IMG/VR virus record: IMGVR_UViG_3300030012_002620
Strand: one strand, 5' to 3'
DNA length: 64,000 nucleotides
Source of the DNA: an uncultured virus (IMG/VR IMGVR_UViG_3300030012_002620)
Taxonomy: Duplodnaviria > Heunggongvirae > Uroviricota > Caudoviricetes > Crassvirales
The notes under the pieces were generated by a model that saw only the letters and a program-made list of their open reading frames with translations, did not search any database and was not told the DNA's origin. Shown here piece after piece: positions 3-29,609 of this stretch (its first letter is position 1; each line of letters starts with the position of its first letter). The translations under genes were made by a program, and so were the position numbers.

Positions 3-332
3 TCATATGGTTACACAGGTCGTATGTACGGTGGTCACTTTCACAATCATACACCTCGTATAAATCCTTACTATGCAGATGACATAGAAGAAACAGCAGA
101 ACCAATGTACTTTGACGATGACTTGTATGAAGAGCATGTAATATCATCATTACCAGACGACTGTCCTATGTGTAATCAAACAGAACTTGAATACGATGAG
201 ATGACAGGCGAGGTATGGTGTTATTCATGCGGTGCATATTTACAAGCAGAAAACTTAAACTCTTTTCAAAATGAACAAAATCAATCAAATCAAAACAACG
301 AACAGCAGGGGACTTTCACCTTTGAGTCGTAA
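3..332 (+). CDS. 5'-truncated protein with acidic C-terminus and Zn-ribbon
   Basis: Frame is open from the window edge (SYGYTGRMYGG...). CPMC-x16-CYSC ribbon near the end. Confidence 0.65.
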   Translation, partial: SYGYTGRMYGGHFHNHTPRINPYYADDIEETAEPMYFDDDLYEEHVISSLPDDCPMCNQTELEYDEMTGEVWCYSCGAYLQAENLNSFQNEQNQSNQNNEQQGTFTFES

Positions 333-2529
333 CACTAAATTTTTATATCATGTCTGGCACAGATTATTGAACAACAATATATCTGGTCTATCATATACAC
401 AAAAAAAGTTTTTAGAACACATAATGAAACAATGTGTAATAAGCAATACTATTGATGTGAACTCAGTTGGATTATCTGTAATGCAAATACAAAAAGATAT
501 AAGCAATTACATTTATAACTTGCATTGCCTTGCAAATCTCAAATTTGGCAACATATTACCCTTTGCTACATATGAGAATTTCAATTATAAAATGGTAAAT
601 CCTGCAACAAATACACTTCGTATTCAAAAATTTATCCGTATTGCATGCCAACATATTCTAACTGAACGTGAAATCAGAAAAGAAACCAAACATTGGGAAT
701 CAGCAGTTGGTGAACAAATCAAAAACACAGACATTGACAGAGGTTTTTGTCGCTATTGGTCAAAAAAGATATTAATATTTCAATATCGACTATACAAAAC
801 ATTGACTAAAAATGCACAACAAATTGTTCATCTTGCAGAACCAAAAACATACTTTCAATCAAGACGTGCAAGACTTGACAATGATTTCTATATGTATCGA
901 ACAAAATCCAGAAACGTAACAATACACGAACAACCTTTATATGTTGGAGAACAATGCACCGCTATTCTAGGTTATGACACATATATGCAGAATCATCTAT
1001 CATGGTCAAATATATTCCATCAACAACCAACAATCAACAGACTAATATCTGAAACATTGCTACAAGATATCACAAACGCACTTAAAGGTGCGATAGACAG
1101 CTGTCCAGAAAAAATCAAAAAAGACAAAAAGAGGTTTGAAATATACAAATTCAATGCGAGTCTAATGCAAGAGTTTGCAATGCACAGCTCAAGATTACCT
1201 GCTGACCAATCACTTGACAGACACTTCACAATCAACAAAGAAGGTCAAATGTCATACAGTCCAGCAAAAAAACCTACATACATGACATCAAATGGTAACT
1301 GGCTATCTGGTGCAGAACGTATGATAACTAAATTTGGCAAAGGTGTAAGAAAATTATTTGCAACATACCCAGATACAATTGAAGAAAGTATCATTGAACA
1401 TATATGCAATCAACTAAAAGCTAAACATACGTTTGCAGCTGAAATGGTTGTTGTATCTGGTGAAGATATACGTCATTGGTATCATGAAAACAATACAAAT
1501 TATACAGTCAATACAGGTACACTTGCTGGTTCATGTATGCGTTATGATAGATGTCAACCATACCTTGATATATATGTAGAAAATCCTGACAAAATAAAAA
1601 TGCTAATATGTCGTGATAATGATAAAATTATTGGCAGAGCATTACTATGGCATGATGATAACGGTGACAAAGCTTTCATGGACAGAATATACGGTGCTGA
1701 CAAAACAATTGCTGCTTGTAAATCGTGGGCTAGTAAAAATGGTTATCTATACAAAAACAATCAATCATACAGAGATAAATCAGAATTCATAACAACAACA
1801 GGTCAACTTGTTGACAGACAATTTATAATAACACTAAACAAACCAACATCAGCACAGTTCCCATACGCTGATACTATGGCACGTATGATTATTGACGGAG
1901 ACTTTCTCAAAGTTACAAATCAACCTCACGACGCTTTTGACAACTGCTTTATTCTTGATATAACTGGTGGCAGGTTATATGGATATGGTGGCAATACACC
2001 TCCACCACGCAGAACAAATCTGAGTCATCCAGATATGGGTTGGCAAAGCGAAGATGATGAAGATACAATAATATTTCACAATGGTGAATATCATATGGAC
2101 GAATGTGGTTATTGCGAACACTACGACGGTTGGTTTCATGAAGATGACTTATGCTATGTAGAATCAGACAATTGCTACTATCACTCTGACCAATGCTACT
2201 GGGTTGGTGATTACGCATTTTACAACGACGGTAGTTACGACTGTCACGTTTGGTCAGAATGTGAAGATGAAAACTTATGGACTGATGACGCATACAGTAT
2301 TGCAGATTCAAATTATGAGCACATGGACTATTGTAGTGCAGAAAATTGTTTCTACTCTGACTATCATGGTGTATCATTCCACGAAGAAGACGCATTCTAT
2401 TGTCCAGTCACAGAAGATTACGAACACGTAGACAACACAAAAGAAATAGAAATTGACGGTACAACATACGAGGTTGCAGACTTCTGTAGCTATGATGACG
2501 TAGAAGAGTATCACTATAATAATAACTAA
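271..2529 (+). CDS. Large early protein with a conserved phage domain (possibly GNAT/PcfJ-like) and C-terminal Cys/His/Asp/Tyr-rich repeats
   Basis: 752 aa ORF. SCMRY..YLDIYVENP..IIGRALLW..FMDRIYG motif, then repeats such as YCEHYDGWFHEDD, YSDYHGVSFHEED, YCPVTEDYEHVDN. The ORF is solid; the function is a guess. Confidence 0.55.
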   Translation: MNKINQIKTTNSRGLSPLSRNTKFLYHVWHRLLNNNISGLSYTQKKFLEHIMKQCVISNTIDVNSVGLSVMQIQKDISNYIYNLHCLANLKFGNILPFATYENFNYKMVNPATNTLRIQKFIRIACQHILTEREIRKETKHWESAVGEQIKNTDIDRGFCRYWSKKILIFQYRLYKTLTKNAQQIVHLAEPKTYFQSRRARLDNDFYMYRTKSRNVTIHEQPLYVGEQCTAILGYDTYMQNHLSWSNIFHQQPTINRLISETLLQDITNALKGAIDSCPEKIKKDKKRFEIYKFNASLMQEFAMHSSRLPADQSLDRHFTINKEGQMSYSPAKKPTYMTSNGNWLSGAERMITKFGKGVRKLFATYPDTIEESIIEHICNQLKAKHTFAAEMVVVSGEDIRHWYHENNTNYTVNTGTLAGSCMRYDRCQPYLDIYVENPDKIKMLICRDNDKIIGRALLWHDDNGDKAFMDRIYGADKTIAACKSWASKNGYLYKNNQSYRDKSEFITTTGQLVDRQFIITLNKPTSAQFPYADTMARMIIDGDFLKVTNQPHDAFDNCFILDITGGRLYGYGGNTPPPRRTNLSHPDMGWQSEDDEDTIIFHNGEYHMDECGYCEHYDGWFHEDDLCYVESDNCYYHSDQCYWVGDYAFYNDGSYDCHVWSECEDENLWTDDAYSIADSNYEHMDYCSAENCFYSDYHGVSFHEEDAFYCPVTEDYEHVDNTKEIEIDGTTYEVADFCSYDDVEEYHYNNN

Positions 2530-2530
2530 T

Positions 2531-2617
2531 ATGTCAAAATTCAGAATATTTTTATCACGATTACTCCAAGTTCTTTGGATATTATTAATACTTTTAATAA
2601 TGTTATATGCAAAATAA
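2531..2617 (+). CDS. 28-aa hydrophobic membrane peptide
   Basis: Manual translation MSKFRIFLSRLLQVLWILLILLIMLYAK*, starting 1 nt after the upstream stop. Confidence 0.45.
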   Translation: MSKFRIFLSRLLQVLWILLILLIMLYAK

Positions 2618-2716
2618 AGACAACAAATACGAAAACAAAATGCGTATGCTTGCTATTTCTTATATAGGAATTCTTTTGTGTGTTCTTTATTTAATTATCA
2701 AAACACATTTATTGTA

Positions 2717-3109
2717 ATGTCAAATAAAAAAACAACATCACAATCATTACATGCGACGCGCAAAAATGCGACAGGCGACAAGCAACATTATGCGACAGGC
2801 GACAATATGCGAAATCAAAATTCGCGTGTGCATCCAGAATGCACGGATCCCGATCACCAGTCTTCAAAAAACGCGACATTCAAAAGCGAAAAGGTTATTA
2901 TGTCGGTAAAACAAGCCTTGAATCCGCCATCTGAGCTGGAAACTCCAGGCAAACCTGAAGAGCAAACAGCAAAGTTCGCGACATACATTATACTGCTTTG
3001 TTTATTGTCGTTTCTTTTCCTGTGTCTGATGGGGTGTGCAGGTCAAAAGGCATATATAGAACCACAATACTTTAACCAACCTCCTAAAAATATTACTTAC
3101 ATAACTTGA
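2717..3109 (+). CDS. Hypothetical protein, possibly membrane/lipoprotein; start uncertain
   Basis: Hydrophobic stretch ending in a lipobox-like LMGC. The 5' half overlies the GCGACA repeats and may be non-coding. Confidence 0.35.
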   Translation: MSNKKTTSQSLHATRKNATGDKQHYATGDNMRNQNSRVHPECTDPDHQSSKNATFKSEKVIMSVKQALNPPSELETPGKPEEQTAKFATYIILLCLLSFLFLCLMGCAGQKAYIEPQYFNQPPKNITYIT

Positions 3110-3346
3110 TTAATAAACAATAATTTTTTAAATTTGTTAAAAATGAATATACCCGATTATTTACATAGTGAACTATTACACAAAAGGAAAAACGACAAAG
3201 TTTTCCAAAAAACTTACAACACAATCAATGATTTGACAGACGCAATCACAATCATGGAGATGCGACAAGCTGGGGTGGATGCGACAATGCGACGCGATAA
3301 TGCGACAAAAAAGCTCTTCTCCGATCTGACTCACCACAATGCGACA
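2751..3346 (+). repeat. ATGCGACA direct-repeat cluster (iteron-like)
   Basis: ATGCGACAGGCGACAA at 2766 and 2790. ATGCGACA at 3260, 3279, 3300, 3339. Variants at 2751, 2807, 2871, 2976, 3287. Confidence 0.9.
3129..3136 (+). promoter_or_regulatory. Bacteroidota housekeeping-sigma -7 element
   Basis: TAAATTTG matches TAnnTTTG, 6 nt before ATG 3143. Confidence 0.55.
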
Positions 3347-3406
3347 ATTATCAGTAGACATATAATAGATATAGTAAACTATACAATACATAATTTTGAA
3401 AAATAG
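3143..3406 (+). CDS. Hypothetical protein
   Basis: ORF; ATG 3143 preferred over TTG 3134, which lies inside the promoter motif. Confidence 0.55.
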   Translation: MNIPDYLHSELLHKRKNDKVFQKTYNTINDLTDAITIMEMRQAGVDATMRRDNATKKLFSDLTHHNATIISRHIIDIVNYTIHNFEK

Positions 3407-3788
3407 AAAGAAACTTTTGCTACAAGCATGGGAACTAATACAGAAGAAAAAGTCAAAAGAACTTGTTTTTGAAGATACTTCTTACTTTTATAAAAGTATA
3501 TGTATGAGTAAACTCGACAACCGAATGGAAATATTCGATATAGCGACTGACATATACAGACCACTATCCGACAAAGAACTTGAAACCTTAATAAAGATAG
3601 GATTCGACAAGTTTGCTACCCAACTACAAATCAAAAACACACTTGATGCAATTGCATTAAATAGAAATATGTTTCATATTGCAATCGCAAAAGGAAGTCA
3701 AAAAGAAAAAGAATTTTTCTTCCGTAAAACTATGAGAAGAATAAAAAAATTACGCAAGTTATTAGGATATAAACAAATATTTGCGTAA
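3396..3788 (+). CDS. Hypothetical protein
   Basis: 130 aa ORF with TTG start, packed in the operon. Confidence 0.65.
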   Translation: MKNRKKLLLQAWELIQKKKSKELVFEDTSYFYKSICMSKLDNRMEIFDIATDIYRPLSDKELETLIKIGFDKFATQLQIKNTLDAIALNRNMFHIAIAKGSQKEKEFFFRKTMRRIKKLRKLLGYKQIFA

Positions 3789-3817
3789 ATTCGTTAATAA
3801 CCTTTAATTTTATTTTT

Positions 3818-4225
3818 ATGAAAACAGATAAACTAAGAGTTTTATACAAGAAGTATGAACTAGAAAAAGATGATGTCTTTAAACATCAGCACTACATTAT
3901 TATCACACGAAGTGGTATTGACAAAATTCAGGCGAAGGAGGCAATAACCATCAATTATGACGTCATAGAATGCCAACCTAACTTCTGTGTCGTTAAAGCT
4001 TCAGCCGCAGCAGGTTCTAATAATATACAGACATTTGGTTCAGCACTCAAAGGCACGTCGCACAGAGATGGTAACTGTAACACTTGGTATGTTATGGAAA
4101 TGGCAGAGAAACGCGCCATGAGTAGAGCAGTACTAAAGCTAACAGGTTTCTATGAGTTAGGAGTATTTGGAGAAGATGAAAGCGAAGATTTTAAAAGAGG
4201 TAATGAGGTATGGAAAAAACAATAA
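3818..4225 (+). CDS. Putative ssDNA-annealing recombinase (Rad52/Sak-like)
   Basis: MEMAEKRAMSRAVLKLTG...EDE motif; sits directly upstream of the exonuclease and SSB genes. Confidence 0.55.
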   Translation: MKTDKLRVLYKKYELEKDDVFKHQHYIIITRSGIDKIQAKEAITINYDVIECQPNFCVVKASAAAGSNNIQTFGSALKGTSHRDGNCNTWYVMEMAEKRAMSRAVLKLTGFYELGVFGEDESEDFKRGNEVWKKQ

Positions 4226-4935
4226 AAAAGTTAAAGTCCGACAAACATTATTACGGCAAGTTTGGTAAACAGTTTTTATCAAACTCTGACATATACGACT
4301 TACTACATAATCCAAAAGAGTTTCAACAACCCAAGGAGGCGAATGTCAATTTTGAATTTGGCAAAGCTTTCCATGAAATGATTATGTTTGGTACAGTACC
4401 AACTTACGTTGAAGCTAGTTCTAGGCGGACTAACATATATAAAAATGCTTGTGCAGACAACAAAGTAGATATGATGCTCCTGGACAGTGAAGTAGAAGAG
4501 CTAACAAATGCAGTCGCCAAAGCTAAAGACAATGAGTTTGTCGCGAAATTACTAGCCCGTGCTGATCTGAACTTTGAAGTCCCCAATGTTGCAGAACTTA
4601 CAGACAACAAGATCCAGTGGAAGTGTAAAGCCGACATAGTAACTGATGATTGCTTGTATGACATCAAAACATCCAGTAACCTCAAGGGTTTCAAAGCTTC
4701 AAGCCGTGCATATAATTACGACTCACAAGCTTACATTTATTCGACAATGTTCCAGAAGCCAATGCGTTTTCTGGTTGTAGAAAAGAAGACAGGTTGTGTA
4801 GGACTATTCGATGTGTCGGATGAATCATACTTAGCAGGTCAGGAAAAAGTAGAAAGAGCAGAACAAAACTACATAACATATCACCTTAAAAAGACTGATA
4901 AGTTAGATAACTTTATGGTGTATGGCGAGATATAA
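4210..4935 (+). CDS. RecE/exonuclease VIII-like PD-(D/E)XK nuclease
   Basis: LSNSDI, FGKAFH, KCKAD..DIKTS, YDSQAYIY motifs. Confidence 0.8.
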   Translation: MEKTIKKLKSDKHYYGKFGKQFLSNSDIYDLLHNPKEFQQPKEANVNFEFGKAFHEMIMFGTVPTYVEASSRRTNIYKNACADNKVDMMLLDSEVEELTNAVAKAKDNEFVAKLLARADLNFEVPNVAELTDNKIQWKCKADIVTDDCLYDIKTSSNLKGFKASSRAYNYDSQAYIYSTMFQKPMRFLVVEKKTGCVGLFDVSDESYLAGQEKVERAEQNYITYHLKKTDKLDNFMVYGEI

Positions 4936-4936
4936 A

Positions 4937-4996
4937 AGGGATAACGATGAGGGCCCTATTTTTTTAATCACATGTATTATCATCGTTTGGTACATG
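4937..4996 (+). promoter_or_regulatory. Structured RNA leader (kissing loop/pseudoknot) upstream of SSB
   Basis: Hairpin 4971-4979/4988-4996; its loop TCATCGTT is the exact complement of AACGATGA at 4943-4950. Confidence 0.55.
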
Positions 4997-5015
4997 ACTT
5001 TAATTTTATTTTAAT

Positions 5016-5348
5016 ATGAGTACATTAATTTCAGCGTCAATTAAAGCTTCAGAGTTGAAGAAGATTGACCAAACAAAAATCATTAAGGGAGAAAAGGATA
5101 ATTATATACCTATTACAATTTCTGTTAATGATGAAAGTAAATTCGGTAAGAATGTTTCTATCACAATTGCACAAAGCAAGGAAGAAAGAGACGCCCAAAC
5201 GGCAAAGCATTATTTAGGTAATGGCTCGGTCATTTGGACAGACGGCAATATTGTCAAAGGTCAAAAAGATGATTCACAATCACCAATGCCAAATGCGACA
5301 AAAACCGCTGATGCGACAAGCTTGGGTGTTGATGACTTGCCTTTCTGA
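5016..5348 (+). CDS. Putative single-stranded DNA-binding protein
   Basis: Small beta-rich core, flexible linker, acidic DDLPF C-terminus. Confidence 0.75.
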   Translation: MSTLISASIKASELKKIDQTKIIKGEKDNYIPITISVNDESKFGKNVSITIAQSKEERDAQTAKHYLGNGSVIWTDGNIVKGQKDDSQSPMPNATKTADATSLGVDDLPF

Positions 5349-5357
5349 AAGTTCAAT

Positions 5358-5378
5358 GCCCCTCGCAAGAGGGGTTTT
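5358..5378 (+). terminator. Intrinsic terminator
   Basis: GCCCCTC-GCAA-GAGGGGT followed by a short T run. Confidence 0.7.
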
Positions 5379-5391
5379 AAACCTAAATGCA

Positions 5392-5631
5392 ATGGAAAAT
5401 ATCTTAAAGCTTATGAAAACCTTTTTGGCTATAGGCAAAATGACAGAAACAGACGATACCCCTATAGAAGAAAAAGTAAAGTATCGTCAGAGAATAGTCT
5501 TCGCTACTATGAAGAAACTTATACCAGAATGGAGACAACCTCCTGATTGGTATATGCTTAGTGATGAAGAAAAATTAAGAAGACTTGATTACTTAGAAAA
5601 AGTCTCAACACCTAAAAAACATGAAAAATAG
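5392..5631 (+). CDS. Hypothetical protein
   Basis: ATG 5392 after the terminator; the track's longer 5221 start overlaps SSB. Confidence 0.65.
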   Translation: MENILKLMKTFLAIGKMTETDDTPIEEKVKYRQRIVFATMKKLIPEWRQPPDWYMLSDEEKLRRLDYLEKVSTPKKHEK

Positions 5632-6166
5632 TATATTATATAAAATAGCAAAAATAGTCGCTGATCGTTTTGAAGTGGATCCAGAGTTCATTTTTCAAGA
5701 CACACGGCGACATGCTGTAACGGATGTCAGAGCAATTTATCATTTTATGTGTAACAAATACACTAAAGAAAGATTGCGAGTGATAGGGCAGTTTAGTCAA
5801 AAAATGGGGAGAAGTGAACCTCATCACCATGCAAGTATTGTTTATGCAATTAAAAAAGTAAAAAGCTTGTATGAAGTAGATAAAAAATTCAAAGAACATG
5901 TTGATACTATTTCAGAAGTTATTGAAAAGCAATTGACTTATGATAAGTTTGTTTCAAGAAAAAATGCGACAACTATATCAAACATAATCGAAAGGATTTT
6001 CTATGAAGATGATTACGAGTTTTTAACTTACCTAGATTTATTGGTAGATATGCTTTACGAACATAAAGACAAAGAGATAATTGAAAACTTAATAAAGACT
6101 CTGAAGAAAAATAATGAAGGGCTACATAAAGCTACACAGGACGATTCTAGACTGGGAGTGGTATAA
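5621..6166 (+). CDS. DnaA domain IV (C-terminal HTH)-like DNA-binding protein
   Basis: IVADRFEV..IFQDTRRHAVTDVRAI..LRVIG..HASIVYAIKKV follows the DnaA_C pattern. Confidence 0.7.
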   Translation: MKNSILYKIAKIVADRFEVDPEFIFQDTRRHAVTDVRAIYHFMCNKYTKERLRVIGQFSQKMGRSEPHHHASIVYAIKKVKSLYEVDKKFKEHVDTISEVIEKQLTYDKFVSRKNATTISNIIERIFYEDDYEFLTYLDLLVDMLYEHKDKEIIENLIKTLKKNNEGLHKATQDDSRLGVV

Positions 6167-6803
6167 AGACACAAACACAAAAATACTTTTCATACACTTA
6201 CTATTAAACGCTTGTTTTGATAGGTGTAAGTTTATGGGTGTTTATATGTTGCGTGGTCAATACATCACCTCAATGTCAAGACTGTCTAATGAACTTGGGT
6301 TGACAAGCAGACAATTACGTACCGCAATATCGCGATTAAAGAAAACAAAAGAGATTAATGTAAAAACTACAAATAAGTTTACTTTGTTTACTGTATGTAA
6401 TTATGAAAACTATCAATTTGAAGAGCAAAGAAACAATGCGACAATACTAACTGAATCACACAACGATTCATATTATAACGCATGTATAAAAAATGCTATT
6501 TGGTTAGAACAAGTTTGTGTCAATCAAAAATTAAATAAAGAACAATTAGAAAAAGCTTTAGAAAAGTTTAATAATTATTTGAACTTAACAAATGATTTTA
6601 AATCGAATTTAAAACAATACAAAAGTCATTTTATAAATTGGACTAAATACAATATAAAAACTATAGCGAAAAGTTCTGGAACATACCAATGGAAATGGAA
6701 AGGGCAAGCTATAAAACATGGAACTAAAACTGATTTAGAAAAAGATAAAAGTATATTTGATAAGCCTGGTTTTGAATTTAAAATTTTAAAGAATGGAAAT
6801 TAA
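6114..6803 (+). CDS. Phage replication initiator / replisome organiser (wHTH)
   Basis: GYIKLHR.ILDWEWY.D..TKILFIHLLL..RGQYITS...L N-terminus; directly upstream of the primase-helicase. Confidence 0.75.
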   Translation: MKGYIKLHRTILDWEWYKDTNTKILFIHLLLNACFDRCKFMGVYMLRGQYITSMSRLSNELGLTSRQLRTAISRLKKTKEINVKTTNKFTLFTVCNYENYQFEEQRNNATILTESHNDSYYNACIKNAIWLEQVCVNQKLNKEQLEKALEKFNNYLNLTNDFKSNLKQYKSHFINWTKYNIKTIAKSSGTYQWKWKGQAIKHGTKTDLEKDKSIFDKPGFEFKILKNGN

Positions 6804-8577
6804 CGGATACGAAATAGACACTTATAATATATATGGGCTAGACACAAGGGCAAATAAATCGACATGCCCAAAGTGTTCGCACACACGAAAAAAGAAAACC
6901 CAAAAGTGTTTAATGTTAGACTGGAAACGAGGTCTAGGAACTTGTCAGCATTGTGGAGTTGTGTTACAATTACACAGTTACAAAAATAGACTAGAGCCAA
7001 AAGTTTATATAAAACCACAACCTATAAAAAAAATCACAATCATTGACAAAGTCGTCAAATGGTTTAATGGCAGAGGTATTTCTAAAAAAACTTTAGATGA
7101 TTTAAAAATATCAAATGGCAAAGAGTTTATGCCACAAGAAGGCAAAGAAATGAATGTAATTCAATTCAATTATTACATTGACAACGAACTCATAAATGTA
7201 AAATATAGAGATTCGAAAAAGAACTTTAAATTATATAAAGGAGCACAAAAAACCTTTTATAACATTGATTCAATTAAAGACAAAGATACTTGTGTTATTG
7301 TAGAGGGGGAAATAGATGTAGCATCTTATCATGAAGCAGGTGTTACAAATGTAATAAGTGTACCAAATGGTTTTGTCGCGACAGGGCAGGTAAACCTAGA
7401 CTACTTGACGGATTTTTATAGTTATTTCGAGGGTATGGACAAGATCTATTTAGCCTTGGATAATGATCAAGCAGGCGAAAATGGAAAGAAAGAACTTGTA
7501 AGGAGATTAGGTTCTGACAAAGTATATATAGTTGATTTACAAGAATGTAAAGACGCAAATGAATTTTTATTAGAATATGGTAAAGAAAAATTAAAAGAAA
7601 CGATTATAAACGCAAAGCCATGCCCAATAGAAAATGTAGTAAGAGTTTCTGACATACTAGGTAAACTAGATAATTTTTATAAAAACGGAATCAAGAATGG
7701 GTACAAAATTGGTCTGGATGGGTTTGATAATATTTTCTCGACATACACAAAACAATTCCTTGTTGTGACGGGGTTTCCATCAAGTGGTAAATCAGACTTT
7801 GTAGATCAAATGACTATTGGATACAACATGATGTATGGATGGAAGACAGCATATGCTTCAACAGAAAACTTCCCACAATATTTACATGTAGATAAACTAG
7901 TACGGAAGCTTTATGGTAGAACACCAGACTATGATGACACTAAAAAGAAAGATTGGATAAATTGTGTAGAACATATAAACAAAAACTTTTTCTTTATTGA
8001 TTATGAAGAGGGTTTTGATTTAGATAAAGTACTTACCAAAGGAGAAGAGTTAGTCAAAAGATTAGGAATAAGGTGCTTAGTTATTGACCCATATAATAAA
8101 GTAAGAGATAAACAAAATTTAAATTTAAGTATAACAGACTACACAAATATATATTTAAATAAAATAGATAACTTTTGTAAAAAAAATGACGTAGTTTGCA
8201 TCTTGGTTGCACATCCAACAAAGCCGCAGTCAGATAAAGGTAAACTTATTGAACCCACATTTTACGACGTAAAGGGTGGTGGTGAGTTCTATGACATGAG
8301 TCCACATGGTATTCTAGTTCATAGAGATTATGACCAGGGGCTTGTAAAGGTTAAAGTTTTAAAAGTAAAATTTTCTAACTTAGGTGAAAATCAAGCTCAT
8401 GTAAATTACGGGTGGAACGTAAACAACGGCAGGTATACTAAAATAAAAGAAGGTAATCCTACTTGGGACAACTCTAATTGGCTTGATTCAAAAAACAACC
8501 CTTTTGAAATTACAAAAAGTTTAGATATAGAGTTTGAAAAATTATCACAATCATCGGAAGAAAAGTTACAATTTTAA
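6793..8577 (+). CDS. Bifunctional primase-helicase (T7 gp4/Twinkle-like)
   Basis: Zn finger CPKC..CQHC, Toprim IVEGEID and DND, Walker A GFPSSGKS, Walker B LVIDP. Confidence 0.93.
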   Translation: MEINGYEIDTYNIYGLDTRANKSTCPKCSHTRKKKTQKCLMLDWKRGLGTCQHCGVVLQLHSYKNRLEPKVYIKPQPIKKITIIDKVVKWFNGRGISKKTLDDLKISNGKEFMPQEGKEMNVIQFNYYIDNELINVKYRDSKKNFKLYKGAQKTFYNIDSIKDKDTCVIVEGEIDVASYHEAGVTNVISVPNGFVATGQVNLDYLTDFYSYFEGMDKIYLALDNDQAGENGKKELVRRLGSDKVYIVDLQECKDANEFLLEYGKEKLKETIINAKPCPIENVVRVSDILGKLDNFYKNGIKNGYKIGLDGFDNIFSTYTKQFLVVTGFPSSGKSDFVDQMTIGYNMMYGWKTAYASTENFPQYLHVDKLVRKLYGRTPDYDDTKKKDWINCVEHINKNFFFIDYEEGFDLDKVLTKGEELVKRLGIRCLVIDPYNKVRDKQNLNLSITDYTNIYLNKIDNFCKKNDVVCILVAHPTKPQSDKGKLIEPTFYDVKGGGEFYDMSPHGILVHRDYDQGLVKVKVLKVKFSNLGENQAHVNYGWNVNNGRYTKIKEGNPTWDNSNWLDSKNNPFEITKSLDIEFEKLSQSSEEKLQF

Positions 8578-8794
8578 AGATATCTCAGAGATTATGAGCA
8601 AAGTATTTGAACACAATATTAAAATTTACCCGAAAGTTTATGATAAAAAACATTTTAAAATTGAAATAGATTTTAATGGAAGAAAAAAACTAGGTGATAT
8701 TATTTATAATTGGAAAACAGAACAGAAAGAAATGCAAGAAAAAATTAGGGAACTATATTTAGAAATTTATGAAAGAATACAAACGAGGAAATAA
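8534..8794 (+). CDS. Hypothetical protein
   Basis: ORF in operon; alternative ATG at 8594. Confidence 0.6.
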   Translation: MKNYHNHRKKSYNFKDISEIMSKVFEHNIKIYPKVYDKKHFKIEIDFNGRKKLGDIIYNWKTEQKEMQEKIRELYLEIYERIQTRK

Positions 8795-9080
8795 AACATA
8801 CGTATACGACGCAGACTTATTAGAGTTTCAGTATAACACATTTAAAAAAATGTCTAACGAAGAATTTGTAGAAAATATTATAGATGCTTTACACTATGCT
8901 TGTTATGTTTCTTGGCTAAACAAGTTAAATACAGATCAAACACTAGCAGATAACGGGATTATACATGAATTGGTACATTTAACAAAAAAAAGCACTAGGC
9001 AATACCAAAATGTATCTGAAACAAGAAAAAAATTTAACAAAATGTTAAAAGTGTCAAAAAAAAACTATAATTTTAGTTAA
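8769..9080 (+). CDS. Hypothetical protein
   Basis: 103 aa ORF in operon. Confidence 0.65.
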   Translation: MKEYKRGNKTYVYDADLLEFQYNTFKKMSNEEFVENIIDALHYACYVSWLNKLNTDQTLADNGIIHELVHLTKKSTRQYQNVSETRKKFNKMLKVSKKNYNFS

Positions 9081-9092
9081 CTTAGTAGTAGA

Positions 9093-9470
9093 ATGTCAGA
9101 CAAACCAAAAAAAATAATACAATTCAATAAAGCTTTTGACATTCCTATTAATAAAAAACCAACTTTACTCGACAGTAAAGAATATAATTTAAAATATAAT
9201 CTACTTAAAGAAGAACTAGACGAATACTATGAAGCTTGTGTAAATGGCGACATGGTAGGGGTTAGTGATGCGATTGTCGACATGCTGTACGTTTTGTACG
9301 GGTTTGTTGTACATCATGGTTTGTCAAACGTCATTGACGAAATGTTCGATGAAGTTCACAAATCTAATATGAGTAAACTTGAAAACGGAAAGGTTTTAAG
9401 ACGGACAGACGGAAAGATTTTGAAAGGTTCAGAGTTCTTTAAACCAAACTTAAAACAATATATGGATTAA
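9093..9470 (+). CDS. MazG-like nucleoside triphosphate pyrophosphohydrolase
   Basis: LLKEELDEY..DAIVDMLYV..EVHKSNMSK..DGKILKG motifs. Confidence 0.88.
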   Translation: MSDKPKKIIQFNKAFDIPINKKPTLLDSKEYNLKYNLLKEELDEYYEACVNGDMVGVSDAIVDMLYVLYGFVVHHGLSNVIDEMFDEVHKSNMSKLENGKVLRRTDGKILKGSEFFKPNLKQYMD

Positions 9471-9471
9471 T

Positions 9472-9642
9472 ATGGCAATTACATCACGTGAGCGGTACAT
9501 TACCAACGCATTTAACAAAATGCACGGTAAACTCGACTCCGCTTTCGAAGATGTTTTTGATGGAGAATTTGAAGAGTGTAAGAATACCATTAATTCATTG
9601 ATTTATGATTTAAAAGATTTCAAAAAATCAATGGAGACATGA
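9472..9642 (+). CDS. 56-aa hypothetical protein (absent from the ORF track)
   Basis: MAITSRERYITNAF...KKSMET*; fills the gap with an ATGA overlap into the next gene. Confidence 0.65.
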   Translation: MAITSRERYITNAFNKMHGKLDSAFEDVFDGEFEECKNTINSLIYDLKDFKKSMET

Positions 9643-10736
9643 AGAAAAGAGTACGTATTACACCAGAAGAAGCGCAGGCACTTGGCATAAAATCAAAGCC
9701 AATTGAGAAAGGTAGAAGAACTTTCAGAACCTACCTAACATCAGACCAAAGAACTCAACTAAAAGAAATAAAACACAAAGGAGTCGTTGTTTTTTGTGAA
9801 GAAAGAGGCATAGATTTCAATAGTGTAAAAGAATATTGGGATAAGACAAAAGAATATTCTATAAGGGTAAGACCAGAAGTTCTTTCTTATTCTGACATAT
9901 GTGAGGATATAATTAAGGAAATGGATAAACATTCTCCTAATTATAAAACCATAAAAAGAAAAAAACTTAAGAGCCCACACTTATTAGTATTGGATCCCGC
10001 AGACATACACATAGGTAAGCTTGCTACAAGTTTTGAAACAGGTGAAGCTTATGATCAGGAGATAGCGGTACAAAGAGTGAGAGAAGGAGTTGAGGGAATA
10101 CTAAACAAGTGTTACGGATTTGATTTAGAAAAAATAGTTTTAGTTATAGGAAACGATATATTACATATAGACACACCAAAAAGACAAACAACGTCAGGAA
10201 CTCCACAGGATACAGATGGTATGTGGTATGAAAACTTTATGAAAGCAAAGTCTTTATACGTAGAAATTATAGATAAGCTTATGGCTATTTGTGATGTGCA
10301 TGTAATGTATAACCCTTCTAATCATGACTATACAAACGGATTCTTTTTAGCTGACGTTATAAAGTCTTGGTTTAGAAAAACAAAAAATGTTACGTTTGAT
10401 ACAGCAATTACACATAGAAAATATTACAGGTACGGTATGAATTTAATTGGCACAACGCATGGTGATGGTGCGCGTGTCGCGAATTTACCATTGTTGATGG
10501 CAGTAGAATCTAAAGAATACTGGGCAGAATGTCGACATAGATACATATATACTCATCACGTACACCATAAAAACGCAAAAGATTATACTGGGGTGACAGT
10601 AGAAAGCCTAAGAAGTCCGTCATCAGCTGACTCATGGCATCATAGAAATGGATATCAACATAACCCAAAAGCTATTGAAGGTTTTGTTCATCACCCTGAA
10701 CACGGTCAAATAGCTCGATTAACACACATATTTTAA
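9639..10736 (+). CDS. Calcineurin-like metallophosphoesterase
   Basis: DIHIG, GNDILH, SNHD, HGD, HHVHH metal motifs. Confidence 0.85.
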   Translation: MKKRVRITPEEAQALGIKSKPIEKGRRTFRTYLTSDQRTQLKEIKHKGVVVFCEERGIDFNSVKEYWDKTKEYSIRVRPEVLSYSDICEDIIKEMDKHSPNYKTIKRKKLKSPHLLVLDPADIHIGKLATSFETGEAYDQEIAVQRVREGVEGILNKCYGFDLEKIVLVIGNDILHIDTPKRQTTSGTPQDTDGMWYENFMKAKSLYVEIIDKLMAICDVHVMYNPSNHDYTNGFFLADVIKSWFRKTKNVTFDTAITHRKYYRYGMNLIGTTHGDGARVANLPLLMAVESKEYWAECRHRYIYTHHVHHKNAKDYTGVTVESLRSPSSADSWHHRNGYQHNPKAIEGFVHHPEHGQIARLTHIF

Positions 10737-10912
10737 TGGAAGAAGAATGGACACAAATATCATTTTCTTTCTTTTGGCCTTATGAGGCGATGCTGGTAGG
10801 ATATGAAATGGTAGAGCCAAATGAAACACAACATTGGTATAGTTTTATGTTGCATTGTTTTTTTTGCACATTTAGATACGAATGGGGCTTCGGAGATAGG
10901 CCTTATTCATAA
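10736..10912 (+). CDS. 58-aa aromatic-rich hypothetical protein (absent from the ORF track)
   Basis: MEEEWTQISFSFFWPYE...GDRPYS*; TAATG overlap with the upstream gene. Confidence 0.6.
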   Translation: MEEEWTQISFSFFWPYEAMLVGYEMVEPNETQHWYSFMLHCFFCTFRYEWGFGDRPYS

Positions 10913-10919
10913 TTTTTTG

Positions 10920-10927
10920 TATATTTG
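10920..10927 (+). promoter_or_regulatory. TAnnTTTG promoter element
   Basis: TATATTTG just after the upstream stop. Confidence 0.6.
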
Positions 10928-10929
10928 TA

Positions 10930-11019
10930 AAGAGTTTATCATCTAGAGTTCTTATTAGTCGTATCGCTCTAGACAAGTTTTCATTGTAAAAACCCTTGCT
11001 AAACAGTGGGGGTTTTTTT
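10930..11019 (+). ncRNA. Candidate small RNA
   Basis: About 90 nt without an ORF between a promoter and a terminator; internal stem TCTAGAG/CTCTAGA. Confidence 0.45.
10988..11019 (+). terminator. Intrinsic terminator, possibly bidirectional
   Basis: AAAAACCCTTGCT-AAAC-AGTGGGGGTTTTTTT. Confidence 0.75.
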
Positions 11020-11033
11020 ATTATTTTTACATT

Positions 11034-11522
11034 ATGAACATCGAGGATAAATTTTATTGCAGTAGGGAGCCAGACGATACAGAAATCATAGTCATCAAAA
11101 ACTTATTAAAAAAAATAGATTTAAAAGGTTATTTAAATGACAACTTTATTTATGTGTTGTTGGAAGAAAATGAAGGAGGATTCGAAATATTATCTTTTGA
11201 AAATGATTATGTGTTTATAGCATCAAAAGAATTGAATGTTCCTAATAAAATGGCTATAGAGTATTTGATTGACAAAGTAGAGATTGATCAAGCGTATAAC
11301 GAGCTTTTGTTTGATACGAAAATTGGATCATTAAAAAAATATAAAACAGTAACCAAAGAAAAACTAACCAGAAAAGGTGTAGTAAAAAAGTATTCTTCCT
11401 ATGACATATTTGCTTCTACCAAAAAAGAAGCTGGTCAAATCTTAAACAAGATAGGTATTTTTGACTACCTTAGCATTGAAGATGTATCGAAGAAGAAAAA
11501 AAAGACAGATAACGAGACATAA
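11034..11522 (+). CDS. Hypothetical protein
   Basis: 162 aa ORF. Confidence 0.65.
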   Translation: MNIEDKFYCSREPDDTEIIVIKNLLKKIDLKGYLNDNFIYVLLEENEGGFEILSFENDYVFIASKELNVPNKMAIEYLIDKVEIDQAYNELLFDTKIGSLKKYKTVTKEKLTRKGVVKKYSSYDIFASTKKEAGQILNKIGIFDYLSIEDVSKKKKKTDNET

Positions 11523-11937
11523 GAAAACAAAGATTGACGGCATAGAGTTTCAGTCTAAGTTAGAGTCGCACATGTATCTGCTCCTAAAATCTCACAAAAT
11601 TCCAAACGAATACGAAGGAACAAAATTCACAATCATTGACGGGTTTGAACTGCCTTTCAGTTCTTATGAAAAAACTCCTAAGAAAAAATTCTTACACGAT
11701 AAAGGTCATAAAAAAATATTACCCATAACATACACTCCAGATTTCGTTGATACTCAAAACCCACCAAGATATATTATTGAATGTAAAGGAAATCCTAACG
11801 AGAGATTTCCAATGGTGTGGAAGCTTTTTAAACGCTATCTAACAGTAAATAATATACACCCAGACCTCTTTGTACCAAGGAACCAAAAAGACTGCTTAGA
11901 AGTCGTTAAAATTATTAAGGATAAATATTTTACTTAG
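11482..11937 (+). CDS. PD-(D/E)XK endonuclease (DUF1064 / T7 endonuclease I-like resolvase)
   Basis: DGIEFQSKLE, ITYTPDF, IIECKG motifs; ATG 11482 preferred. Confidence 0.8.
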   Translation: MYRRRKKRQITRHKKTKIDGIEFQSKLESHMYLLLKSHKIPNEYEGTKFTIIDGFELPFSSYEKTPKKKFLHDKGHKKILPITYTPDFVDTQNPPRYIIECKGNPNERFPMVWKLFKRYLTVNNIHPDLFVPRNQKDCLEVVKIIKDKYFT

Positions 11938-19042: not shown

Positions 19043-19052
19043 CTACTTAAAT

Positions 19053-21005: not shown

Positions 21006-21011
21006 ATTCTT

Positions 21012-21761: not shown

Positions 21762-21782
21762 AATATTAAGTTTTTAATTACA

Positions 21783-21790
21783 CAAATATA
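21783..21790 (-). promoter_or_regulatory. TAnnTTTG promoter element
   Basis: TATATTTG on - strand in the intergenic gap upstream of 21761. Confidence 0.65.
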
Positions 21791-21796
21791 CAAAAT

Positions 21797-22570: not shown

Positions 22571-22574
22571 AATT

Positions 22575-27929: not shown

Positions 27930-27930
27930 G

Positions 27931-28818: not shown

Positions 28819-28820
28819 AA

Positions 28821-29585: not shown

Positions 29586-29599
29586 GAGTATATTTTTTA

Positions 29600-29607
29600 C
29601 AAAAATA
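29600..29607 (-). promoter_or_regulatory. TAnnTTTG promoter element
   Basis: TATTTTTG on - strand, immediately after a terminator. Confidence 0.5.
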
Positions 29608-29609
29608 AT

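What the first reader, a model, noticed from the sequence alone, without database searches (positions are those of the whole stretch)
2751..6443. Polarised ATGCGACA repeat system at a GC-skew switch: candidate origin
Seen: ten exact ATGCGACA copies, all on + (2766, 2790, 3260, 3279, 3300, 3339, 5293, 5311, 5964, 6436), a duplicated 16-mer ATGCGACAGGCGACAA with 24-nt spacing, several variants, and a palindromic TGTCGCGACA near 7374. A rough composition estimate predicts under one copy per strand in the whole window. The motif sits in several unrelated genes and in more than one frame (NAT/DAT and MRQ), so selection acts on the nucleic acid. Spot counts show + strand C>G left of about 2.6 kb and G>C by 4.4 kb although both sides code on +. 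Inference: iterons of a replication origin bound by the initiator (6114) or DnaA-IV-like protein (5621). Alternatives are primase sites (GTC core on - strand) or antitermination signals.
Basis: partly seen in the sequence, partly recalled or inferred. Interest (0 to 1): 0.75.

Follow-up and report, generated by a model that had tools for sequence, protein, structure and literature searches.

The report
Origin-type repeats beside a phage nick site
The ATGCGACA copies are real DNA-level repeats of the kind that mark a phage replication origin, and each cluster sits just after a second, strictly one-stranded 9-base motif at which the DNA of this uncultured marine phage group appears to be cut on one strand.

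Summary
Observation confirmed: ATGCGACA occurs 10 times on + between 2766 and 6443 and once on - (0.85 expected). The window is most of a ~66 kb marine Flavobacteriia-type podovirus, and the copies lie in its recombination/replication module.

Relatives change the picture in two ways.

1. The core (G)CGACA is an iteron. In 43 of 51 distinct relatives the initiator gene carries 3-6 tandem 11-bp units NCGACANGCAA, all on one strand and read in three frames, followed by an AT-rich run. That is lambda-ori-like. This phage keeps one copy there (6436).

2. All three clusters here, and the syntenic array in relatives, start 11-23 nt after a second motif, TCACAATCA. That motif is strictly strand-specific genome-wide: 16/0 here, 287/0 in 80 loci.

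17 of 77 contigs from many samples begin exactly at TCACA^ATCA and none ends there. This is the signature of a fixed 5' end (nick) on the + strand, as in Pseudomonas phage tf.

Best reading (about 0.5): initiator-binding repeats placed beside a programmed nick, forming a nick-linked origin. Protein binding, the nick itself and replication start are inferred, not shown. The GC-skew argument is weak. Rivals are packaging signal, operator, and primase sites.

The parts
2738..2814 (+). Cluster 1: TCACAATCA (2738-2746), then ATGCGACG 2751, ATGCGACA 2766, AGGCGACA 2773, ATGCGACA 2790, AGGCGACA 2797, ATGCGAAA 2807. Syntenic with the nick-linked array of relatives. It overlaps the 5' part of the small ORF 2717-3109.
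   Evidence: A contig of a related strain from another run starts exactly at 2743 (X4 record 24).
2871..2983 (+). Two degenerate copies: ACGCGACA at 2871-2878 and TCGCGACA at 2976-2983.
3100..3142 (+). AT-rich, promoter-like stretch (TTG at 3106, TAAATTTG at 3129-3136) upstream of ORF 3143-3406. In relatives the equivalent element follows the array directly.
   Evidence: Sequence; AT-rich window; relatives. The Bacteroidetes promoter consensus is recalled, not tested.
3246..3346 (+). Cluster 2: TCACAATCA (3246-3254), then ATGCGACA 3260, 3279, ATGCGACG 3287, ATGCGACA 3300, 3339. Lies inside ORF 3143-3406.
5274..5318 (+). Cluster 3: TCACAATCA (5274-5282), then ATGCGACA 5293 and 5311. Lies in the tail-coding end of the SSB-like ORF 5016-5348, which ends in DDLPF.
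   Evidence: The equivalent site in L001, L004, L020, L021 and L023 also carries the composite.
5964..5971 (+). Single ATGCGACA inside the DnaA-domain-IV-like gene, with no TCACAATCA beside it.
6436..6443 (+). Single ATGCGACA(A) in the linker-coding part of the initiator gene. This is the place where 43 of 51 relatives carry 3-6 tandem 11-bp NCGACANGCAA units.
6520..6665 (+). Stretch of 85% A+T or more inside the initiator gene, downstream of the 6436 copy. Candidate unwinding region.
   Evidence: Relatives have an A+T-rich run right after their 11-bp array.
6114..6803 (+). Initiator / helicase-loader gene (229 aa). Candidate binder of the repeats.
   Evidence: PHROG DnaD-like helicase loader 1.6e-23 and replication initiation protein 6.8e-6; Pfam DUF7833; no PDB sequence match.
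5621..6166 (+). DnaA-domain-IV-like helix-turn-helix protein (181 aa). Second candidate binder.
   Evidence: Pfam Bac_DnaA_C 4.6e-9; weak match to Aquifex DnaA domain IV, E 0.018.
6793..8577 (+). T7 gp4-type primase-helicase (594 aa).
   Evidence: PHROG DNA primase/helicase 1.7e-85; Toprim and DnaB_C/KaiC hits.
41..63378 (+). The 16 copies of TCACAATCA, all on +: 41, 1226, 2738, 3246, 5274, 7034, 8545, 11627, 17701, 20684, 25997, 39088, 53506, 61938, 62491, 63370. Inferred + strand break between A5 and A6 (TCACA^ATCA).
7374..7383 (.). Palindromic TGTCGCGACA inside the primase-helicase gene. Single occurrence; significance unknown.

Best explanation
The ATGCGACA copies are iterons: short direct repeats with the core (G)CGACA that serve as binding sites for the phage's replication initiator. 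The most likely binder is the DnaD-like replisome organiser at 6114-6803. The DnaA-domain-IV-like protein at 5621-6166 is the other candidate.

In most relatives two arrays exist. One is a tandem 11-bp array plus an A+T-rich run inside the initiator gene, laid out like lambda ori. The other is an intergenic ATGCGAC array that always begins 11-23 nt downstream of one copy of TCACAATCA. In this phage the internal array has shrunk to one copy (6436), and three TCACAATCA-linked clusters (2738-2814, 3246-3346, 5274-5318) carry the repeats.

TCACAATCA is itself a genome-wide, strictly + strand motif at which the + strand has a fixed 5' end (TCACA^ATCA). The most likely cause is a programmed nick like those of phages T5, phiKMV and tf.

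Proposed mechanism: the initiator bound to the repeats just 3' of the nick opens the duplex there. It loads the gp4-type primase-helicase onto the 5' tail of the + strand, which moves 5'->3', i.e. rightward. The 3'-OH at ...TCACA then primes rightward strand-displacement or rolling-circle synthesis.

Shown: excess, polarity, conservation, synteny, reading in several frames, 11-bp phasing in relatives, and contig starts at the motif.

Inferred: protein binding, the chemical nature of the break, and any role in replication.
For: 1. Excess and polarity. 10 + and 1 - copies against 0.85 expected. ATGCGAC occurs 12 + and 1 -.

2. Iteron identity. In 51 distinct 240-nt segments of the initiator gene of relatives, 43 hold 3 or more CGACA on +. 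The totals are 192 on + and 2 on -. The commonest spacing is 11 nt (74 instances) and the next is 22 nt (17). An 11-nt period cannot keep a reading frame. An A+T-rich run follows the array. Window units GCGACAAGCAA (2775) and ATGCGACAAGCT (3260, 5311) match the relatives' unit GCGACAAGCAA.

3. Second array. The window, L001-L080 and L084 hold 26 distinct arrays of 3 or more GCGAC, all on the primase strand. 17 have TCACAATCA 11-23 nt upstream. 6 open a contig that begins ATCA. 3 (L052-L054) are the initiator-internal kind. The array is syntenic, 3.7-5.1 kb upstream of the primase gene (my subtraction of positions). It is intergenic in L022 and L033.

4. TCACAATCA.
   - Counts: 16/0 in the window; 287/0 in 80 loci; 19/0, 11/0, 16/0, 6/0 and 11/0 in five whole records with reversed-pattern controls of 0-1; 15/0 on a 64.6 kb phage contig, against 34 on both strands in about 4 Mb of the MAG it was binned with.
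   - Placement: sites lie mostly inside ORFs in all three frames (74/76/34) and are not tied to ORF starts.
   - Contig ends: 17 of 77 left contig ends start exactly at TCACA^ATCA, where 0.5 is expected (P about 1e-21). 0 of 61 right ends stop at TCACA, but 4 stop 7-15 nt past the break.
   - Homologous internal sites in other contigs are mostly preceded by TCACA: 16/16, 9/9, 6/6 and 10/14, but 2/6 for L031.
   - A Logan contig from another run starts at 2743.
   - The array-linked site is a contig start more often than other sites (6 starts vs 17 read-throughs, against 11 vs 206; Fisher p 0.0025).

5. Geometry. All arrays lie 3' of the motif on the same strand, which is where a 5'->3' helicase would need to load on the displaced strand (inference).

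6. Context. The module encodes exonuclease, SSB-like protein, DnaA_C protein, initiator and primase-helicase.

7. Precedent. Phage tf has a 9-nt nick motif at 14 sites, top strand only, denser in one half (PMC3517423, passages read). The motif is conserved over 61 phages (PMC11780129, passages read).
Against: - No binding, nick or replication data exist. Everything physical rests on where assemblies end.
- In the window the repeats are not regularly phased (spacings 15, 7, 17, 7, 10; 19, 8, 13, 39; 18). Three clusters within 2.6 kb is odd for one origin.
- In relatives the nick-linked unit (ATGCGAC followed by T or C) differs from the initiator-internal unit (NCGACANGCAA). Two different proteins may read them.
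- In relatives the nick-linked array sits directly upstream of a conserved promoter-like element. That fits an operator or activator site equally well.
- GC3 skew shows no origin-like switch.
- 9 of 10 exact copies share one reading frame.
- A plain nick leaves the other strand intact, so breaks in assemblies need an added assumption: breakage opposite the nick, followed by end polishing.
- The motif is absent from 80 loci of phages with 67-74% identical terminase (3 vs 5 in 900 kb) and from G006-G010. It is a trait of one clade only.
Confidence: 0.5

Rival explanations
1. Packaging signal. TCACA^ATCA next to the array is the terminase cut or nick that creates the left genome end. The ATGCGAC repeats are binding sites for a small terminase subunit, as cosB lies beside cosN in lambda. 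Packaging proceeds rightward from there.
For: - 6 IMG/VR contigs and 1 Logan contig begin exactly at the array-linked site.
- That site is a contig start more often than other motif sites (p 0.0025).
- Repeats beside a defined end are known from lambda cos and the T7 ends (recalled).
Against: - There are 16 motif copies per genome, and contigs also start at at least five other sites without arrays.
- No right end stops at the cut, so no double-strand end is evident.
- The window has three array-linked sites within 2.6 kb.
- The same core forms arrays inside the initiator gene.
- G006 has a 73% identical terminase but lacks the motif, the arrays and the initiator. This is one genome only.
- No small terminase subunit was identified.
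Confidence: 0.15
2. Transcription operator. The ATGCGAC repeats bind a phage regulator, for example the DnaA_C-like helix-turn-helix protein, which switches the recombination/replication operon on or off. Their closeness to TCACAATCA is incidental or regulatory.
For: - In relatives the array lies between a terminator-like T-run and a conserved promoter-like element directly upstream of the first gene of the operon.
- Direct repeats about one helical turn apart suit a regulator.
- A more distant relative, MW202828, has a 16-bp palindrome with CGACAC half-sites about 30 nt upstream of many early genes.
Against: - In the window two of the three clusters lie inside ORFs, away from any promoter-like sequence.
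- Every array follows a TCACAATCA, not a promoter.
- The related 11-bp arrays sit in the middle of the initiator gene next to an A+T-rich run.
Confidence: 0.15
3. Priming sites. The - strand of every copy reads GTCGCAT and contains 5'-GTC-3', the core recognised by T7-type primases. The arrays would be hot spots where the gp4-like primase starts + strand synthesis. In a variant of this idea, TCACAATCA is itself a primase start: the primer would begin AUCA on template 5'-TGAT-3', with TGTGA as the uncopied part of the site.
For: - A gp4-type primase-helicase with a zinc-ribbon N-terminus lies next door.
- GAC is invariant in all units, while the following base varies (T, C or A) as a copied position would.
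- A fixed + strand 5' end starting with A, and a 4-nt conserved part after the break, fit a primer start. This point is inference.
Against: - T7-type sites need only 3-5 nt (recalled), whereas 7-9 conserved nt are seen here.
- The conserved ATGC would lie on the uncopied side.
- RNA-primed ends should not give DNA contigs that include the first four bases.
- G006 has a 53% identical primase-helicase but neither motif. This is one genome only.
Confidence: 0.1
4. Protein-level or chance repeat. The copies reflect a recurrent N/D-A-T peptide or recent local duplication, with no DNA function.
For: - 9 of 10 exact copies are read x-A-T.
- The 16-mer at 2766 and 2790 looks like a local duplication.
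Against: - The copies lie in five unrelated ORFs.
- The rare GCG codon is always used.
- One exact copy and one variant are read in another frame.
- In relatives the arrays are intergenic, or have an 11-nt period read in three frames.
- The motif is conserved across contigs whose primase is only 68-87% identical.
Confidence: 0.03

Closest known systems
Lambda-type origin inside the initiator gene (lambda ori in gene O; origins in replisome-organiser genes of SPP1-like and lactococcal phages). Recalled, not read here.
   Same: Several direct repeats in one orientation lie in the part of the initiator gene that codes for the linker after the N-terminal DNA-binding domain. An A+T-rich stretch follows directly. 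The repeats are maintained at the DNA level within a coding region.
   Different: - Units are 11 bp, against about 19 bp in lambda.
- In this window only one copy remains at that place.
- The initiator is DnaD-like by PHROG only.
- A second array type is tied to a nick-like motif, which lambda ori lacks.
Nick-associated motifs of nicked phages: 5'-TACT/RTGMC-3' of Pseudomonas phage tf and relatives, WACTRTGAC of phage Rembedalsseter, and the T5 and phiKMV nicks (PMC3517423 and PMC11780129, passages read).
   Same: - A 9-nt motif found only on one strand.
- About 14-19 copies per genome where under 1 is expected.
- Conserved across a clade whose DNA has otherwise diverged.
- Denser in one part of a genome built from two opposed gene blocks.
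- Sites lie inside genes.
   Different: - Different sequence and host phylum; the clade is uncultured.
- The break is inferred only from contig ends, not shown by ligase-sensitive bands or primer extension.
- In the passages I read, no repeat array beside a nick site is described for those phages.
Double-strand origin of rolling-circle plasmids (nic locus plus bind locus of direct repeats, e.g. pMV158 RepB). Recalled.
   Same: A specific single-strand break lies next to direct repeats bound by the initiator. The 3'-OH primes synthesis in one direction.
   Different: - No HUH-type Rep was found in the window.
- The nick motif has 16 copies, not one.
- The element is a 66 kb tailed phage with its own primase-helicase.
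Lambda cosN/cosB. Recalled.
   Same: A nick site with protein-binding repeats immediately to one side, and a defined 5' end.
   Different: - The motif is multi-copy.
- No matching right ends are seen.
- The repeats share their core with arrays inside the initiator gene.
T7 gp4 primase recognition sites (5'-GTC-3' core). Recalled.
   Same: GTC is present on the - strand of every copy, next to a gp4-type enzyme.
   Different: The conserved part is 7-8 nt and extends to the uncopied side. The sites are clustered, not dispersed.

Membership tests
Origin iterons of phages and plasmids | Three or more direct repeats of one short unit, all in one orientation | tested here: met
   Window: 10 exact copies and 7 variants on + within 2751-6443. 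Relatives: 26 arrays, all on the primase strand; initiator-internal CGACA 192 on + and 2 on -.
Origin iterons of phages and plasmids | Regular spacing in phase with the DNA helix | tested here: inconclusive
   Relatives: the 11-nt spacing dominates (74 instances) and 22 nt is next (17). Window clusters are irregular, with spacings from 7 to 39 nt.
Origin iterons of phages and plasmids | Adjacent A+T-rich unwinding region | tested here: inconclusive
   Relatives: an A+T-rich run directly follows the internal array. Window: 85% A+T or more at 6520-6665, about 80 nt after the single copy at 6436, and at 3081-3140 between clusters 1 and 2.
Origin iterons of phages and plasmids | Located in or next to the initiator gene | tested here: inconclusive
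   Met in 43 of 51 relatives. In the window only 1 copy lies in the initiator gene, and the clusters lie 0.8-3.4 kb upstream of it.
Origin iterons of phages and plasmids | Bound by the cognate initiator; replication starts there | not testable with these tools
   No protein-DNA tool is available, and no raw reads or infected-cell data were found (one search lists contigs only).
Programmed single-strand nicks of phage genomes (T5, phiKMV, tf type) | Motif confined to one strand and far above chance | tested here: met
   16/0 in the window, with exact-copy expectation of about 0.45 on +. 287/0 in 80 loci. 63/0 in five records. 15/0 on contig C66 of G011.
Programmed single-strand nicks of phage genomes (T5, phiKMV, tf type) | Motif conserved through a clade of related phages and absent outside it | tested here: met
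   Present in contigs with 68-99% identical primase. Absent or at chance level in MW202828 and the first 50 kb of elemoE, in G006-G010, in 80 terminase-related loci and in unrelated phages carrying a P0001-like gene.
Programmed single-strand nicks of phage genomes (T5, phiKMV, tf type) | A physical interruption of that strand at a fixed base | tested here: inconclusive
   Indirect. 17 of 77 left contig ends begin at TCACA^ATCA, and 0 of 61 right ends stop there. One Logan contig starts at 2743. Assemblies cannot tell a nick from another kind of fixed 5' end or a polymerase block.
Programmed single-strand nicks of phage genomes (T5, phiKMV, tf type) | Ligatable 3'-OH/5'-P ends present in most virion DNA molecules | not testable with these tools
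   Needs virion DNA.
DnaA boxes | 9-mer matching TTATNCACA (recalled consensus) | tested here: not met
   Neither ATGCGACA nor (T)TCACAATCA(T/C) (logo of 239 sites) fits the consensus. Only TCACA resembles its 3' half.
Chi-like recombination hot spots | Over-represented and strand-skewed in the host chromosome | not testable with these tools
   The host is unknown and no Flavobacteriia genome could be reached. One search used the only genome-contig scan and returned a phage contig.

The most novel reading that the evidence does not exclude
The nicks of nicked phage genomes have had no known function since their discovery in T5. Here they would be origins. A genome-wide, strand-specific nick motif (TCACA^ATCA) would supply 3'-OH primers. 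At selected copies, arrays of initiator-binding iterons placed immediately 3' of the nick would load the primase-helicase on the displaced strand. That would be a nick-primed, iteron-licensed origin in a tailed dsDNA phage, a hybrid of the lambda-type and rolling-circle-type origins.
Probability: 0.25. Interest if true: 0.85.

Novelty: new variant of a known kind. Interest (0 to 1): 0.66.

Why it matters
Iterons in a phage replication module are ordinary. Three things here are not.

- Abundance without a culture. The clade is abundant in the sea: at least 86 IMG/VR stretches by primase, and holders in 11 sequencing studies. The nearest cultured relative shares 41% terminase identity.
- A nick-type motif in a new group. 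The clade carries a strictly one-stranded 9-mer with a physical 5' end visible in public assemblies. I found no paper reporting this for Flavobacteriia phages (searches, which cover only the held library).
- The repeats are welded to that motif. This gives the old question 'what are phage genome nicks for?' a concrete, testable answer: replication start, with packaging start as the rival.

There is also a practical point. Contigs of this clade break at the motif, which matters for judging completeness and ends of viral metagenome assemblies.

Tried and rejected
- Whole genome of the window: none is held.
- Literature search by motif strings: only primer hits, nothing relevant (listing and abstract starts seen).
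- Sequencing runs: 20 holders, all kept as Logan contigs. No RNA holder is listed and there are no raw reads, so read-start pile-ups, transcription starts and expression could not be examined. Laying four runs gave contig pieces only, and 'places where many molecules begin or end' returned none.
- Promoter reading of TCACAATCA: rejected. 184 of 236 distinct sites lie inside + ORFs in all frames. Only 10 of 197 lie within 40 nt upstream of an ORF start. There is no flanking conservation. The ORF caller was crude: ATG starts only, 50 aa or longer.
- Chi-like reading: the host-genome test was not possible. The single genome-contig scan (GroEL query) returned one locus, a phage contig binned in a Maricaulis MAG.
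- Search for direct terminal repeats or contigs ending after the array:
Only 11 of the 80 fetched loci had 2 or more GCGAC.
  - A search with the upstream protein found nothing.
  - A search with its alignment returned mostly distant phages.
- Ends of records G001-G005: only G002 starts at a motif site. No terminal repeats were evident.
- Sister-clade motif search: no comparable polar motif in G006. In the 80 terminase-based loci, conserved coding words swamp the analysis.
- Covariation of proteins with repeat type: not possible. P0002 and P0003 have no detectable homologues in MW202828, elemoE or G006 by tblastn.
- Candidate nicking enzyme: none identified. The 752-aa protein upstream of the array has no Pfam, PHROG or PDB match, only a faint PcfJ lead in the Atlas.
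- Rfam: no family in 1-12000.
- Earlier findings of this scan: none.

Full report
**1. Observation**

Shuffles that keep dinucleotide content give a mean of 0.85 and a maximum of 3.

The shorter core ATGCGAC occurs 12 times on + and once on -. GCGACA occurs 18 times on + (15 of them between 2768 and 6438) and 10 times on -. One-mismatch variants cluster in the same stretch. The duplicated 16-mer and the palindrome at 7374-7383 are as described.

The extended consensus is roughly A-ATGCGACA-A.

**2. Setting**

The window is most of a ~66 kb tailed phage. It has portal, large terminase, virion proteins, GroEL/GroES and tail fibres on the - strand from 11.9 to 61.3 kb.

A + strand block runs from 61.3 kb through the window start to 11.9 kb. 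In that block:
- PDDEXK exonuclease, 4210-4935.
- SSB-like ORF ending in DDLPF, 5016-5348.
- DnaA-domain-IV-like protein, 5621-6166.
- DnaD-like initiator/loader, 6114-6803.
- gp4-type primase-helicase, 6793-8577.
- MazG-like protein, a second exonuclease and a DUF1064 nuclease.

The nearest cultured relatives are distant:
- Flavobacterium phage elemo, 41% terminase identity.
- Cellulophaga phage phi10:1, 44% primase identity.
- An uncultured freshwater podovirus, MW202828, 63% terminase identity.

Twenty public runs from 11 studies hold part of the stretch, almost all labelled marine or seawater metagenome.

**3. A second motif**

A k-mer screen of the window turned up TCACAATCA: 16 exact copies, all on +, spread over the whole 64 kb. 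Eleven lie in the 14.6 kb of + strand genes, where 0.10 is expected. Five lie in the 49.4 kb of - strand genes, where 0.35 is expected (P = 3e-5). None lies on the - strand.

Three copies sit 13, 14 and 19 nt before the first repeat of the three ATGCGACA clusters: 2738 before 2751, 3246 before 3260, and 5274 before 5293.

**4. Relatives carrying TCACAATCA**

A search of IMG/VR with the primase-helicase returned 80 loci with 68-99% identity.

| Source | Primase strand | Other strand |
|---|---|---|
| 80 loci | 287 | 0 |
| Five whole records | 19, 11, 16, 6, 11 | 0 in each |
| 64.6 kb phage contig (GroEL 81% identical), binned in a Maricaulis MAG | 15 | 0 |
| Remaining ~4 Mb of that MAG | 34 on both strands together | |

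The reversed-pattern control in the five records gave 0-1.

A logo of 239 distinct sites shows (T)TCACAATCA(T/C) and nothing conserved outside it.

With a crude ORF caller, 184 of 236 distinct sites lie inside + ORFs in all three frames (74/76/34). 34 are intergenic and 18 lie inside - ORFs. Only 10 of 197 lie within 40 nt upstream of an ORF start. The motif is therefore not a promoter or a gene-start signal.

**5. Where TCACAATCA is absent**

The motif is at chance level or absent in:
- MW202828 and the first 50 kb of elemoE.
- 68 loci of unrelated phages that carry a homologue of the 752-aa protein.
- 80 loci found with the terminase, 67-74% identity, 900 kb in all: 3 on one strand and 5 on the other.
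- Five long records from that terminase set.

One of those records, G006, is complete at 68.7 kb. It has a 73% identical terminase and a 53% identical primase-helicase. It has no detectable homologue of the initiator, the DnaA_C-like protein or the 752-aa protein, no GCGAC or CGACA arrays, and no comparable polar motif. This is one genome, so the association of motif and arrays with the initiator module rather than the terminase is only a hint.

**6. Contig ends**

Seventy-seven loci have a left end, in primase orientation, that is a true contig end. Eighteen begin with ATCA, and the next most common 4-mer occurs 4 times. One of the eighteen, L059, begins one base before a whole motif and is set aside. 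That leaves 17, where 0.5 is expected (P about 1e-21).

For 12 of the 18, homologous internal sites exist in other contigs. Those are mostly preceded by TCACA: for example 16 of 16, 9 of 9, 6 of 6, 10 of 14 and 15 of 23. For L031 it was only 2 of 6. The starts fall at at least six different motif sites.

None of the 61 right ends stops at ...TCACA. Four stop 7, 7, 14 and 15 nt past the break, all at one homologous site that I judged equivalent to window 11627.

In Logan contigs of four runs laid on 1-20000:
- One record of a related strain starts exactly at 2743.
- One ends 12 nt past the motif at 7034.
- One ends 2 nt before the motif at 5274.
- One, from the probable source run, starts 2 nt after the motif at 41-49.
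- Only the longest 32 of 519 pieces were listed.

The whole 9-mer is invariant, so strain variation cannot make contigs start in its middle.

A sharp left boundary with ragged right boundaries is what end polishing gives for a fixed 5' end on the + strand. Overhangs are trimmed or filled to that 5' end. The other fragment ends wherever the - strand broke. That step is my inference.

I read this as a site-specific + strand interruption at TCACA^ATCA. A polymerase-blocking lesion or a primer start would give a similar picture.

The closest precedent is phage tf. It has 14 nicks at 5'-TACT/RTGMC-3', all on the top strand and denser in one half of a genome with two convergent gene sets. The same motif is conserved in 61 Pseudomonas phages (PMC3517423 and PMC11780129, passages read). 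Both papers state that the function of such nicks is unknown.

**7. The repeats in relatives: two array types**

*First type, linked to the motif.* Across the window, L001-L080 and L084 there are 26 distinct arrays of 3 or more GCGAC with spacing of 40 nt or less. All are on the primase strand.
- 17 have TCACAATCA 11-23 nt before the first GCGAC.
- 6 open a contig that starts ATCA.
- 3 (L052-L054) have no such motif.

The units are GATGCGACT, TATGCGACC, ATGCGACA or GACGCGAC, depending on the lineage, usually 10-12 nt apart.

The array is syntenic. It lies 3.7-5.1 kb upstream of the primase gene and just downstream of the homologue of the 752-aa protein (30-40% identity). In L022 and L033 it is intergenic, between a hairpin plus T-run and an A+T-rich promoter-like element. 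That element precedes the homologue of window ORF 3143-3406.

In the window and its near twin L001 a small ORF (2717-3109) overlaps cluster 1 and stays open in both. It ends in a hydrophobic segment. The repeat region has diverged much faster than its flanks.

The array-linked site is a contig start more often than other motif sites: 6 starts vs 17 read-throughs, against 11 vs 206 (Fisher p = 0.0025).

*Second type, inside the initiator gene.* This array lies 280-520 nt upstream of the primase start. 43 of 51 distinct relatives hold 3-6 units NCGACANGCAA there. CGACA totals 192 on + and 2 on -. The spacing is 11 nt in 74 cases and 22 nt in 17. A run such as ATAAATAAGAATATAATAAA follows.

An 11-nt period forces successive units into different reading frames, so the repeat is kept at the DNA level. 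The three 'motif-less' arrays are of this kind.

The eight segments with fewer than three CGACA are the window, L001, L004, L017, L020, L021, L039 and L059. L039 and L059 carry a variant unit, AGACAAAC.

In the window the only copy at this place is ATGCGACAA at 6436. A stretch of 85% A+T or more follows at 6520-6665.

Window units GCGACAAGCAA (2775) and ATGCGACAAGCT (3260, 5311) match the relatives' internal unit. Cluster 1 alternates ATGCGACA with GGCGACAA.

**8. Interpretation**

Repeats in one orientation, one helical turn apart, in the linker-coding part of an initiator gene and next to an A+T-rich run: that is the layout of lambda ori and of origins in replisome-organiser genes (recalled). 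On that basis I file the (G)CGACA repeats as iterons, with the initiator at 6114-6803 as the most likely reader.

What is new is the second array. It is always welded to the 3' side of one copy of a nick-type motif.

The geometry suits a nick-primed origin. The initiator on the repeats opens the DNA beside the break. The gp4-type helicase moves 5'->3' and is loaded on the + strand 5' tail. The 3'-OH at ...TCACA is extended rightward.

In this phage's lineage the internal array is reduced to one copy and three nick-linked clusters exist. The origin function may therefore have shifted to them. All of this is inference.

**9. Results that cut against this reading**

- The window's repeats are irregularly spaced.
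- Nine of the ten exact copies share one frame.
- The nick-linked unit in relatives (GCGAC followed by T or C) is not the internal unit (CGACA followed by NGCA), so two proteins may be involved.
- The array's place just upstream of a conserved promoter-like element fits an operator.
- The array-linked site's excess of contig starts fits a packaging start.
- GC skew gives little. The change of sign near 3.8 kb is real but small and is not seen at third codon positions. The big switch at 11.9 kb follows gene orientation.
- MW202828 is a distant relative without TCACAATCA. It has a non-coding region at 42.7-43.3 kb with AATCGACATAA x4 and ACGCGACG x7, and a palindrome with CGACAC half-sites before 14 early genes. 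The CGAC core is therefore older than the nick motif and may serve regulators too.

**10. Verdict**

The origin-iteron reading is the best supported, at about 0.5. The finding as a whole is a new variant of known kinds: lambda-type iterons joined to a tf-type strand-specific nick motif, in an abundant, uncultured marine phage clade.

Noticed in passing
window 41..63378 (16 sites); L001-L080; G001-G005; G011 contig C66: TCACAATCA is strictly one-stranded genome-wide (16/0 here, 287/0 in 80 loci). 17 of 77 contigs begin exactly at TCACA^ATCA. It became part of the finding but deserves a report of its own as a candidate nick motif of a marine phage clade.
   Followed up: yes
L033, L066, L074, L080 right ends; judged equivalent to window 11627: Four contigs from different samples end 7, 7, 14 and 15 nt after the inferred break at one homologous TCACAATCA site in the DUF1064 nuclease gene. 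No other site shows this. Two ending at exactly +7 could hint at a staggered cut there.
   Followed up: partly
L081/L083 (MW202828) 43747-55156: The freshwater relative has 14 copies of the palindrome GTGTCGTTAACGACAC with asymmetric flanks. Most lie about 30 nt upstream of + strand early gene starts. This is a per-gene early promoter/operator-like or hairpin element.
   Followed up: partly
L081 (MW202828) 42700-43300: A large non-coding region between the divergent gene blocks carries AATCGACATAA x4 and a GC-rich stretch with ACGCGACG x7. It is a candidate origin or control region, annotated as small hypothetical ORFs.
   Followed up: no
window 271-2529 (+): A 752-aa protein with no Pfam, PHROG or PDB match. 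It is conserved in synteny just upstream of the array (30-40% identity) and has homologues in many unrelated and jumbo phages. Its C-terminus is rich in D, E, C, H and Y. There is a faint PcfJ lead only.
   Followed up: partly
window 11930-19042 (-): A 2370-aa ORF directly after the replication block with no Pfam or PHROG match. MW202828 has a 3859-aa ORF at the same place. Possibly an ejected internal virion protein.
   Followed up: no
window 59722-61329, 59228-59506, 38615-39175 (-): The phage encodes GroEL, a Cpn10 and a second GroES-like protein, as do the elemo phages and MW202828.
   Followed up: no
window 63579-63651 (+): tRNA-Glu (anticodon TTC), the only tRNA gene in the window.
   Followed up: no
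L084 / G011 contig C66: A 64.6 kb contig of this phage clade (GroEL 81% identical, 15 one-stranded motif sites) is filed inside a Maricaulis MAG. This is most likely a binning error, not a host link.
   Followed up: partly
window 5016-5348 (+): This ORF has no Pfam hit but ends in ...GVDDLPF, the acidic tail typical of bacterial SSB (recalled). The nick motif and cluster 3 sit in the part coding for its flexible tail, just as the internal iterons sit in the initiator's linker.
   Followed up: no
window 38269-38610 (-): A dATP/dGTP diphosphohydrolase N-terminal domain (Pfam PF18909, 3e-11) lies near the terminase gene. It could point to a modified-base pathway. Not examined.
   Followed up: no
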